Below are positions 50,769 through 51,188 of a stretch of DNA of 64,000 nt, piece by piece (position 1 is the stretch's first letter; each line of letters opens with the position of its first letter). This stretch comes from a virus: the IMG/VR virus record IMGVR_UViG_3300020204_004581; one strand, written 5' to 3'. Position numbers and translations under genes: made by a program. The notes beneath the pieces are model-generated. The model was given only the letters and a program-made list of their open reading frames with translations, was not told the origin of the DNA and made no database searches.

Positions 50769-51188
50769 GGGGATGAATGGAATTGATTGGTGTGTGTAGT
50801 TATAAGTGGCACGTAGGAGCTGAATTAACTCCTTAAAAACTAATTTGAAACGTAAATGGCGAAACTTTCGCTAAACTTTCTGCTATCGGTCTTATCCGTG
50901 AGGAAAGTGTTGTTGCAGCTTAATAGTTGAGAACAACGTCGGGTCGGCAAGGACATATAACCTAGGAACAGAAGTCCATGAGGTCTGACAAATACCACGT
51001 GATTAAGTTCAGAAAATTTGTCAGGAGGTGTTTTCGGTTCAATCCGACTTAATAGGAACCGACCACATTTGTAAGTTTTGATGGAAAAATAAGAACTTTC
51101 TATTTGTTGATTGAGAACCAATCAAATAAACGTGTAGTCACTTATAGGTATCGCAAACAAGACGCGGGTTCGAATCCCGCCATCTCCA
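50769..51188 (+). ncRNA. ssrA: tmRNA
   Basis: 5' GGGGATG pairs with 3' CATCTCC-A, giving G3:U70. T arm GCGGG-TTCGAAT-CCCGC. Tag ORF 50858-50923 (GETFAKLSAIGLIREESVVAA, then TAA TAG) follows TAAAT. CCA is not encoded. Confidence 0.93.

What the first reader, a model, noticed from the sequence alone, without database searches (positions are those of the whole stretch)
50858..50926. tmRNA with an unusually long 21-residue tag
Seen: resume codon GGC after TAAAT, reading GETFAKLSAIGLIREESVVAA then TAA TAG. Established: typical Bacteroidota tags are about 9 residues of the GE.NYALAA type. The GE start and AA end are kept, but an amphipathic segment of about 12 aa is inserted. Inference: the insert could be a private degron or adaptor site for the neighbouring phage ClpC.
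Basis: partly seen in the sequence, partly recalled or inferred. Interest (0 to 1): 0.7.

Follow-up and report, generated by a model that had tools for sequence, protein, structure and literature searches.

The report
Phage tmRNA with conserved long tag
A giant lake phage carries its own ribosome-rescue RNA (tmRNA) that writes a 21-residue tag, twice the length of any sampled bacterial-host-type tag, and this tag is conserved in well over a hundred related phages, always next to a phage Clp unfolding motor, so it may be a virus-private "destroy me" label, though that reading is untested.

Summary
Window 50769..51189(+) is a full-length tmRNA (ARAGORN; Rfam 85 bits), and its tag is GETFAKLSAIGLIREESVVAA followed by TAA TAG at exactly 50858..50926.

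The tag is not private to this phage. I found 135 distinct homologous tmRNAs in viral contigs, encoding 79 distinct tags, all of 21 or 22 residues. They follow G-[NED]-x-[LFI]-x-K-[LM]-x-x-x-G-L-x-R-x-x-x-V-x-V-A. Codon periodicity is clear and A at -4 is invariant, so the long frame is translated.

No cellular lineage has this tag. A pattern scan of about 185,000 species gave only two tiny mis-binned contigs. Fifty sampled Bacteroidota tags are all 8 to 10 residues.

In this family the tmRNA always lies 2 to 6 kb downstream of a ClpC that lacks its N-domain but keeps the ClpP-docking IGF loop, with a conserved peptidase between them. Four larger relatives encode a genuine ClpP, and one also encodes SmpB.

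The "private degron for the phage ClpC" idea is therefore plausible but unproven. The tag interior is not amphipathic. The family C-terminus is V-x-V-A, not AA. The cross-family link between long tags and ClpC is weak (2/10 against 2/38, p = 0.19).

This scan has already noted the same block on other DNA. Phage tmRNAs as such are already known.

The parts
50769..51189 (+). One-piece tmRNA gene. The Rfam match runs to 51191. Acceptor stem is 50769-50775 paired with 51181-51187, with G3:U70 at 50771:51185 and discriminator A at 51188. The 3' end is encoded as CAA, not CCA.
   Evidence: ARAGORN; Rfam 85 bits; sequence; family nhmmer profile; CCA census
50858..50920 (+). Tag reading frame of 21 codons, GETFAKLSAIGLIREESVVAA, with resume codon GGC at 50858-50860
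   Evidence: conserved in 135 distinct homologues; codon periodicity
50921..50926 (+). Tandem stop codons TAA TAG ending the tag frame
   Evidence: TAA in 119 of 135 family members and a double stop in 19
50853..50857 (+). Frame-setting context upstream of the resume codon (UAAAU), with A at -4 (50854) and U at -5 (50853)
   Evidence: A at -4 in 135 of 135 and a pyrimidine at -5 in 135 of 135; the role of the equivalent E. coli A86 is discussed in PMC2481249
50700..50707 (+). TATAAATA, a T4-type late-promoter-like motif 69 nt upstream of the mature 5' end (inferred promoter, with the leader removed by processing)
   Evidence: Motif present in 64 of 134 distinct upstream regions against 5.7% of shuffles; 45 of the 64 lie at -70 to -80
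46733..48742 (+). ClpC-type double-ring AAA+ unfoldase without the N-domain (669 aa). It has the UVR-type M-domain and an IGF ClpP-docking loop (GTGIGFNSS).
   Evidence: Pfam; aligns to S. aureus ClpC residues 146-802, E 2e-223; PHROG 4871
48769..49608 (-). Conserved 279-aa peptidase (PHROG 4191; weak M42/M20 metallo-aminopeptidase similarity) lying between ClpC and the tmRNA
   Evidence: present in 56 of 56 and 66 of 67 family loci
49642..50685 (-). Fast-evolving 347-aa protein of unknown fold directly beside the tmRNA; function unknown
   Evidence: No Pfam or PHROG hit; detected in 34 of 56 loci at about 29% identity; AF2 pLDDT 88.9; no fold match
45551..45793 (-). KTSC-domain protein (80 aa), the conserved left edge of the block
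   Evidence: Pfam PF13619, E 8e-17; present in 52 of 56 loci
46143..46538 (-). Hsp20 small heat-shock protein; not a conserved part of the block
   Evidence: Pfam PF00011, E 4e-13; present in only 9 of 56 loci

Best explanation
This is a working, phage-encoded one-piece tmRNA of a large family of T4-like jumbo phages of about 300 kb from lakes. It is charged with alanine (G3:U70), enters stalled ribosomes with SmpB (usually the host's) and directs addition of a family-specific 21-22-residue tag. These steps are shown or strongly implied by the sequence. The most likely purpose of the unusual tag is to act as a degron read by the phage's own protease. That protease would be the N-domain-less ClpC encoded 2-6 kb upstream, docking through its IGF loop onto the phage-encoded (or host) ClpP. 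The conserved aminopeptidase-like enzyme between ClpC and the tmRNA would then finish the peptides to amino acids. Without the N-domain, ClpC cannot use MecA or ClpS-type adaptors. Direct engagement of a C-terminal tag by the pore would follow the precedent of ClpA, which as I recall reads ssrA tags without its N-domain. The conserved interior (K6, G11-L12, R14) would supply extra contacts or an adaptor site. The recognition step is inference only.
For: The tmRNA is real and complete. The long frame is translated: it is open in 135 of 135 homologues, entropy for codons 2-13 is 1.03/0.37/1.42, pN/pS is about 0.6, and A at -4 is invariant. RNA structure does not explain the conservation, since RNAalifold finds no consensus pairing in the tag region. 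The tag is phage-specific: at least 120 viral hits against 2 mis-binned fragments in about 185,000 cellular species, and one of those MAGs has its own normal tmRNA. None of the 79 tags ends in the classical LAA, and the penultimate residue can be K, E or G. Linkage holds both ways: 59 of 59 ClpC-first loci with enough flank have the tmRNA, and 14 of 14 tag-first loci have ClpC. ClpC has an IGF loop and no N-domain. Genuine ClpP occurs in 4 of 4 larger relatives, and a separate gp21-type prohead protease shows that ClpP is not the head protease. The phages have no MecA, ClpS, SspB or Lon. Family tmRNA pieces occur in metatranscriptome libraries of three studies, with cover confined to the gene. 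The 27-residue Mycoplasma tag co-evolved with Lon, which is a precedent (PMC8403727).
Against: There is no direct evidence that ClpC binds the tag. Linkage inside one phage family may simply reflect inherited gene order. ClpP is 22-50 kb away from ClpC rather than in the block, and it was not found in this 149-kb record, which is 49% complete. Across other phage lineages the association of long tags with ClpC is weak (2/10 against 2/38, p = 0.19). The two other long-tag lineages keep a ClpC N-terminal region. The C-terminal ...V-x-V-A with a terminal Ala could still be read by host ClpXP or other host proteases.
Confidence: 0.4

Rival explanations
1. The tag is a degron for host proteases (ClpXP through the terminal Ala and hydrophobic C-terminus, or Lon, FtsH or Tsp through the hydrophobic interior). 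The long conserved interior serves a host adaptor or simply reflects lineage history. ClpC is a neighbour with a separate job, such as disaggregation or remodelling during infection.
For: The terminal Ala is kept in 76 of 79 tags and the C-terminus is hydrophobic. Most relatives lack SmpB, so the phage already relies on host trans-translation factors. Long tags occur in phage contigs with no detectable ClpC. Lon reads the long Mycoplasma tag (PMC8403727).
Against: None of the 79 tags ends in LAA, although 49 of 50 sampled Bacteroidota tags end in [L/M]AA. The penultimate residue tolerates K, E and G. This reading offers no reason for strict two-way linkage to an IGF-loop ClpC plus a phage ClpP.
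Confidence: 0.27
2. Ribosome rescue is the selected function and the tag is not primarily a degron. The phage tmRNA keeps ribosomes free during late infection, for example when phage or defence nucleases cut mRNAs or tRNAs. The tag sequence is then selected to be harmless, to evade host ClpXP so that this protease is not saturated, or to hold tagged fragments soluble.
For: The phage carries many tRNA genes beside the tmRNA. A late-promoter-like motif lies upstream. The non-LAA C-terminus fits evasion of ClpX. In Mycoplasma pneumoniae mutants with a proteolysis-resistant tag are viable while knockouts are not (PMC8403727), which shows that rescue matters more than tagging.
Against: Rescue alone does not require a tag of fixed length 21-22 with invariant K6, G11 and L12 and a conserved V-x-V-A end over 79 variants. 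A neutral or harmless tag should drift in length.
Confidence: 0.2
3. The tag is a sorting or assembly signal rather than a degradation signal, for example directing truncated products to the membrane, to chaperones or into the capsid.
For: Hydrophobic positions 3/4, 7, 10 and 12/13 are conserved. An earlier unchecked scan note (e1-5678339) proposes short leader and trailer peptides ending in Glu on late proteins of this phage.
Against: The tag is not amphipathic. No consistent (L/I)xE prohead-protease site is present across the 79 tags (inspection). No precedent is known to me for tmRNA tags as sorting signals.
Confidence: 0.05

Closest known systems
Canonical bacterial trans-translation: tmRNA (ssrA, Rfam RF00023) with SmpB, and the ssrA tag read by ClpXP (with SspB), ClpAP, Lon or FtsH
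   Same: One-piece tmRNA with a tRNA-like domain, G3:U70, A at -4 before a G-starting resume codon, a short ORF ending in a hydrophobic C-terminus with terminal Ala, and a stop codon.
   Different: The tag is 21-22 residues against 8-10 in 50 sampled Bacteroidota. It ends V-x-V-A rather than LAA and has a conserved interior (K6, G11-L12, R14). It is virus-encoded. The Rfam score of 85 bits is below every sampled full-length (over cut-off) Bacteroidota tmRNA (93-198 bits). SmpB is absent from this record and from most relatives.
Long ssrA tag of Mycoplasma and Mesoplasma (about 27 residues) co-evolved with Lon (Gur and Sauer 2008, as cited in PMC8403727)
   Same: A tag more than twice the usual length with interior determinants, in a system whose protease repertoire differs from the ClpXP norm. 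This is the best precedent for tag and protease co-evolution.
   Different: The cognate protease there is Lon, and the tag is rich in aromatic and hydrophobic residues. Here there is no phage Lon, the candidate reader is ClpC-ClpP, there is no sequence similarity, and the system is viral.
Known phage-encoded tmRNAs: mycobacteriophage Bxz1 group, Bacillus phage G (PMC4131195), Streptomyces phages (tags ANSKFAFALAA and ANSNVASAYALAA), huge phages (PMC7162821), two-piece tmRNA of pelagiphage and methylophage Melnitz (PMC9004378)
   Same: A lytic large phage carrying its own tmRNA among tRNA genes. The idea of tagging proteins for amino-acid recycling was already raised in PMC9004378.
   Different: The Streptomyces-phage tags listed are short (11 and 13 residues) and of the canonical ...ALAA type. 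None of the papers read describes a conserved phage-specific long tag or fixed linkage to a phage ClpC and ClpP. Only the T-arm of this tmRNA matches GenBank phages.
ClpC-ClpP of Bacillus subtilis and Staphylococcus aureus (adaptor MecA; PDB 6em8, 3j3s)
   Same: Two AAA+ rings, a short UVR-type M-domain and a ClpP-docking loop; end-to-end alignment at E 2e-223.
   Different: The whole N-domain (about 145 residues), which binds MecA, McsB and phospho-arginine, is missing. No MecA or ClpS is encoded. How the phage enzyme is activated and how it chooses substrates is unknown.

Membership tests
tmRNA (ssrA, Rfam RF00023) | Covariance-model match above the curated threshold over the full model | tested here: met
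   85 bits against a gathering score of 47, model positions 1-374; ARAGORN also calls it
tmRNA (ssrA, Rfam RF00023) | tRNA-Ala-like acceptor stem with a G3:U70 wobble pair and a T-arm | tested here: met
   GGGGAUG pairs with CAUCUCC, with G50771:U51185. Relatives keep G3:U70 with a compensatory A5-U to G5-C change (GGGGGTG with CACCTCC).
tmRNA (ssrA, Rfam RF00023) | Resume codon set by conserved upstream nucleotides (equivalent of E. coli U85 and A86) | tested here: met
   A at -4 in 135 of 135 and a pyrimidine at -5 in 135 of 135; Rfam aligns the consensus resume codon to GGC 50858
tmRNA (ssrA, Rfam RF00023) | Short translated tag frame ending in a stop codon | tested here: met
   The frame is open for 21-22 codons in 135 of 135, with coding periodicity, while other frames are mostly closed
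tmRNA (ssrA, Rfam RF00023) | Pseudoknots PK1 to PK4 of the one-piece form | tested here: inconclusive
   Rfam aligns the whole model, but posterior probabilities in the PK2-PK4 region are low. I made no separate covariation test.
tmRNA (ssrA, Rfam RF00023) | Partner protein SmpB available | tested here: inconclusive
   No smpB in this 149-kb record. It is present in 1 of 2 complete relatives. Host SmpB is presumably used.
tmRNA (ssrA, Rfam RF00023) | Accumulates as a stable RNA | tested here: inconclusive
   Contigs of four metatranscriptome runs from three studies cover only 50763-51203 at 88-99% identity, and the flanks have zero cover. Contigs cannot show ends or exclude DNA carry-over.
Classical ClpX-type ssrA degron (C-terminal L-A-A-COOH) | Tag ends in LAA or MAA | tested here: not met
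   The window tag ends VAA. None of the 79 family tags ends in LAA or MAA; most end TVA, AVA or VVA. 49 of 50 sampled Bacteroidota tags end in [L/M]AA.
ClpC (class I Hsp100 unfoldase that partners ClpP) | Two AAA+ modules with a short M-domain | tested here: met
   AAA, AAA_lid_9, UVR, AAA_2 and ClpB_D2-small domains; full alignment to ClpC structures
ClpC (class I Hsp100 unfoldase that partners ClpP) | ClpP-docking [IVL]-G-[FL] loop in D2 | tested here: met
   GTGIGFNSS aligns to the FAGFGGSS loop of S. aureus ClpC
ClpC (class I Hsp100 unfoldase that partners ClpP) | N-terminal Clp_N repeat domain (adaptor and phospho-arginine binding) | tested here: not met
   The protein starts at the equivalent of ClpC residue 146 and has no Clp_N hit
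ClpP serine protease (partner, in relatives only) | Full-length ClpP fold with conserved motifs around the catalytic Ser, His and Asp | tested here: met
   Relatives G001-G004 score E 1e-51 to 1e-59 against PF00574. L084 aligns to S. pneumoniae ClpP at E 3e-48 with PGGSV, MxHQ and RD conserved. It was not found in this record.
Mycoplasma-type Lon-directed long tag | Long tag paired with Lon as the degrading protease | tested here: not met
   The tag is long, but no phage Lon is found. Host Lon could not be tested. The resemblance is in how it may work, not in membership.

The most novel reading that the evidence does not exclude
This jumbo-phage family runs an orthogonal, virus-private tag-and-destroy pathway. 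Its tmRNA would write a 21-22-residue tag that host ClpXP reads poorly. An adaptor-free, N-domain-less ClpC would feed tagged proteins to the phage's own ClpP, and a linked aminopeptidase would recycle the amino acids. The virus, not the cell, would then decide the fate of every stalled translation product late in infection. It would be the first natural viral degron-protease pair, and a ready-made orthogonal degradation tag for Bacteroidota and other bacteria.
Probability: 0.25. Interest if true: 0.8.

Novelty: new variant of a known kind. Interest (0 to 1): 0.55.

Why it matters
Phage tmRNAs have been listed in genome surveys, but in the papers I read their tags are not analysed. This work shows that one widespread family of lake jumbo phages keeps a tag unlike that of any sampled cell. 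The tag has a fixed length, is selected at the peptide level, and lies in a fixed gene block with a ClpP-docking unfoldase that has lost its adaptor-binding domain; the larger relatives also encode their own ClpP elsewhere in the genome. If the tag is read by the phage protease, this would be a viral takeover of protein quality control at the level of the degradation code. It would be comparable to the tag and Lon co-evolution in Mycoplasma, and it would offer a natural orthogonal degron-protease pair for synthetic biology. If the tag is instead read by host proteases, it defines new sequence rules for ssrA recognition. Either outcome can be tested with a few purified proteins. The broader sample also suggests that long tags of 20-31 residues recur in unrelated phage tmRNAs.

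Tried and rejected
- GenBank phages (blastn) match only the universal T-arm, so there are no close relatives there.
- RNA structure does not explain the tag conservation. RNAalifold on 128 tag regions gave no consensus pairs. The ACUUUC/GAAAGU complementarity seen in the window is therefore not conserved.
- An amphipathic helix or strand in the tag is rejected. The hydrophobic moment is no higher than in shuffles.
- A short tag from a downstream resume codon is rejected. ARAGORN proposed this for two relatives (AEEATVVA, AEEAVVEA), but these are the in-frame C-termini of the 21-residue tags, and codons 2-13 show coding periodicity.
- A cellular origin or host lineage with the tag was not found. 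Of 7 pattern hits in about 185,000 species, 5 are not tmRNAs. The other 2 are phage-family tmRNAs on 1.6-kb and 0.7-kb contigs binned into MAGs of two different phyla.
- No phage adaptors or alternative proteases were found: no MecA, ClpS, SspB or Lon.
- The 347-aa neighbour as an adaptor remains open. The AF2 model is confident, but Foldseek gives at best E 0.016 and VIA-align at best Z 5.0.
- The cross-family correlation of long tags with ClpC is 2/10 against 2/38, p = 0.19, and most contigs are small fragments.
- The idea that loss of the N-domain accompanies long tags is rejected. The other two long-tag lineages have ClpCs with N-terminal regions of about 200 residues.
- ClpP as the prohead protease is rejected, because a separate gp21-type protease is present.
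- A prohead-protease (L/I)xE site in the tag is not consistent across the 79 tags.
- Hsp20 is not part of the conserved block (9 of 56 loci).
- Relatives of a virus record cannot be drawn by the genome search.

Full report
**1. The observation**

ARAGORN finds one tmRNA in the window, at 50769..51189 on the + strand, with tag GETFAKLSAIGLIREESVVAA and two stop codons. Rfam's tmRNA model matches 50769..51191 over all 374 model positions at 85 bits, E 1.6e-31. It places the consensus resume codon on GGC 50858-50860.

Translation of 50846..50926 reads *NVN GETFAKLSAIGLIREESVVAA**. The acceptor stem (GGGGAUG with CAUCUCC) contains the G3:U70 pair that specifies alanine.

**2. Origin of the window**

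The window is part of a 149-kb IMG/VR virus record that CheckV rates at 49% complete. Complete relatives are 297 and 309 kb. The record has a T4 gp21-type prohead protease and eight tRNA genes near the tmRNA. DNA runs holding the stretch are lake-water metagenomes. It is a lake jumbo phage of the T4 type.

An earlier unchecked scan note assigns it to Bacteroidota hosts. I did not test the host.

**3. Is the long frame really the tag?**

I fetched relatives in two ways. Starting from the neighbouring ClpC gave more than 599 viral contigs, of which 80 were kept. Starting from a degenerate tag pattern, independently of ClpC, gave at least 120 viral contigs, all of them tmRNAs.

A profile built from the first ARAGORN hits found full tmRNAs where ARAGORN alone saw only 14. 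In total there are 135 distinct tmRNA sequences encoding 79 distinct tags, 74 of 21 residues and 5 of 22. The consensus is G-N/E-V/T-L/F-A/N-K-M/L-x-A/T-L/V/I-G-L-I/L/V-R-x-E-E-V-T/V-V-A, with G1, K6, G11, L12, V18 and A21 nearly or fully invariant.

Four results show that the frame is translated:
- The tag frame is open in all 88 distinct 21-codon sequences, while the other two frames are open in only 9 and 5.
- Entropy at codon positions 1, 2 and 3 is 1.03, 0.37 and 1.42 for codons 2-13, and pN/pS is about 0.6. The N-terminal half is therefore translated, and a downstream resume codon giving a short tag is excluded.
- A at -4 is invariant and -5 is always a pyrimidine. This matches the frame-setting nucleotides studied in E. 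coli (PMC2481249).
- RNAalifold finds no conserved pairing in the tag region, so the conservation acts on the peptide and not on the RNA.

**4. Is the tag cellular?**

The same pattern was scanned over one genome from each of about 185,000 prokaryotic species and gave 7 hits. Five are not tmRNAs. Two are phage-family tmRNAs on contigs of 1.6 and 0.7 kb, binned into MAGs of Terrimicrobiaceae and Nanopelagicales. The latter MAG has its own normal tmRNA with tag AKHKANDFALAA. These two are binning contaminants.

Fifty Bacteroidota tmRNAs drawn evenly from the phylum have tags of 8-10 residues ending in [L/M]AA, with one odd call. The pattern catches about three quarters of the known family tags, so a cellular lineage with a diverged version could have been missed.

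**5. The surroundings**

The gene 2 kb upstream (46733..48742) aligns end to end with S. aureus and B. subtilis ClpC from residue 146 onward (E 2e-223). It lacks the whole N-domain and keeps the M-domain and an IGF loop at the ClpP-docking position.

Between it and the tmRNA lie a 279-aa peptidase with weak M42/M20 similarity and a fast-evolving 347-aa protein. That protein gives a confident AlphaFold model that matches no solved fold.

The block of KTSC protein, ClpC, peptidase and tmRNA is present in 52-56 of 56 loci. Hsp20 (9 of 56) and the downstream TonB-type receptor (6 of 56) are variable.

Every ClpC locus without a tmRNA hit has 5.5 kb or less of downstream sequence, mostly under 3 kb. 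Among tag-first loci, 14 of 14 with at least 9 kb upstream have ClpC on the same strand, and 66 of 67 with at least 3.5 kb have the peptidase.

This record has no clpP or smpB. All four larger relatives encode a genuine ClpP 22-50 kb downstream of clpC, and one complete genome encodes SmpB. No MecA, ClpS, SspB or Lon was found.

**6. Expression**

Contigs from four metatranscriptome runs of three studies align at 88-99% identity to 50763-51203 only. Both flanks have zero cover. This is a weak-to-moderate hint that family tmRNAs accumulate as RNA. Contigs cannot show ends, and the flanks are less conserved than the gene.

A T4-type late-promoter motif (TATAAATA; 50700-50707 here) lies 70-80 nt upstream of the gene far more often than chance. 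This suggests late transcription with a processed leader.

Only 45 of 80 parsed family members encode the 3' CCA. This one encodes CAA, so a CCA-adding enzyme is needed.

**7. How it most likely works**

- Shown or strongly implied: a functional tmRNA adds a family-specific 21-22-residue peptide to stalled nascent chains.
- Inferred: the tag is a degron for the phage's own ClpC-ClpP.
- In favour: the strict block structure, the IGF loop, the phage ClpP, the lack of an N-domain and of adaptors (so substrate choice must be direct), a C-terminus that departs from the LAA kept by sampled Bacteroidota tags, and the Mycoplasma precedent of a long tag co-evolved with another protease (PMC8403727).
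- Against: linkage inside one family may be mere inheritance, and ClpP is not in the block. In a broad sample of other phage tmRNAs, 10 of 63 tags are 20-31 residues long. ClpC-type genes were found in only 2 of 10 long-tag contigs against 2 of 38 short-tag contigs (p = 0.19). Most of those contigs are small fragments. The two other long-tag lineages keep a ClpC N-terminal region.

I put the phage-protease reading at about 0.4, host-protease reading at 0.27, rescue-first with a non-degron tag at 0.2, and a sorting signal at 0.05.

**8.

- The tag is a family trait, not private to this phage.
- The AA end is a minority state. Most tags end in V-A.
- The interior is not amphipathic. Its hydrophobic moment is 0.18 against 0.27 for shuffles.
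- An insertion into a GE.NYALAA tag cannot be demonstrated.

**9. Comparison with what is known, and novelty**

Phage tmRNAs are known (PMC4131195, PMC7162821). PMC9004378 counts them in 2.3% of phage genomes and already raises the amino-acid recycling idea. Jumbo-phage ClpP, ClpS, ClpA and ClpX are catalogued without mention of tmRNA (PMC7824862).

I found no paper describing a conserved phage-specific long tag or its fixed linkage to a phage ClpC and ClpP. My searches cover open-access text only.

This scan has already noted the same block on other DNA (e1-5858466, e1-5858450, e1-5730925), so within the scan this is a repeat find.

I class it as a new variant of a known kind and score interest at 0.55.

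Noticed in passing
L300, L382, L285, L318, L332, L383, L289, L339, L347 (viral contigs): Long tags of 20-31 residues recur in unrelated phage tmRNAs, both one-piece and two-piece: 10 of 63 ARAGORN tags in a generic sample, against none of 50 sampled Bacteroidota cells. L383 (...NKVFSLLREEVAVAA) resembles the C-terminal half of this family's tag.
   Followed up: partly
L300:5739-6101 (tmRNA) and L300:7465-9333 (ClpC); whole ClpC ORF at L389:1426-3810: An unrelated phage lineage (61-kb contig) has a 794-aa ClpC-type gene 1.4 kb upstream of a tmRNA on the same strand, with a 20-residue tag GNKSRVKALAFNKQELALAA. This is a second, independent ClpC-then-tmRNA arrangement.
   Followed up: partly
L088 (= L216) and L090 (= L220): Phage-family tmRNA fragments sit on contigs of 1.6 and 0.7 kb binned into MAGs of Terrimicrobiaceae and Nanopelagicales in the species-representative genome collection. 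This is likely binning contamination that could mislead tmRNA surveys.
   Followed up: yes
window 49642..50685 (-): A 347-aa protein directly beside the tmRNA gives a confident AlphaFold model (pLDDT 88.9) with no match to any solved fold. Metagenomic relatives include forms of about 600 aa (P0025-P0041).
   Followed up: partly
window 51188..51191; family census: This tmRNA encodes A-CAA instead of A-CCA at its 3' end. Only 45 of 80 parsed family members encode CCA, so maturation needs a CCA-adding enzyme. The complete relative G001 encodes a PolyA_pol-family nucleotidyltransferase (L397).
   Followed up: partly
L083:1495-1995 (-), contig of L012 (G001, 309 kb): One complete relative encodes its own SmpB (166 aa, E 2e-47), while another complete relative (G002) does not. 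SmpB is therefore an accessory part of the phage's trans-translation set.
   Followed up: partly
L003-L082; L005, L025, L039: ARAGORN detects only 12 of the 59 family tmRNAs that a family profile finds in the 80 ClpC-selected loci. It sets an internal resume codon in two of them and calls a spurious tag in one. Surveys that rely on ARAGORN alone will undercount and mis-tag these phage tmRNAs.
   Followed up: yes
window 50700..50707 and family upstream regions: The T4-late-type motif TATAAATA clusters 70-80 nt upstream of the tmRNA. Its reverse complement TATTTATA is found in 86 of 134 of the same regions, possibly serving the divergent 347-aa gene.
   Followed up: partly
window 51412..54699 (+): The TonB-dependent-receptor-like gene just downstream of the tmRNA is present in only 6 of 56 related loci. 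The region after the tmRNA is a variable insertion site.
   Followed up: partly
G010-G159; L224-L273: Sampled Bacteroidota tmRNAs fall into two size and score classes: about 350-375 nt at 130-198 bits and about 400 nt at 93-150 bits. Tag length is the same in both (8-10 residues).
   Followed up: no
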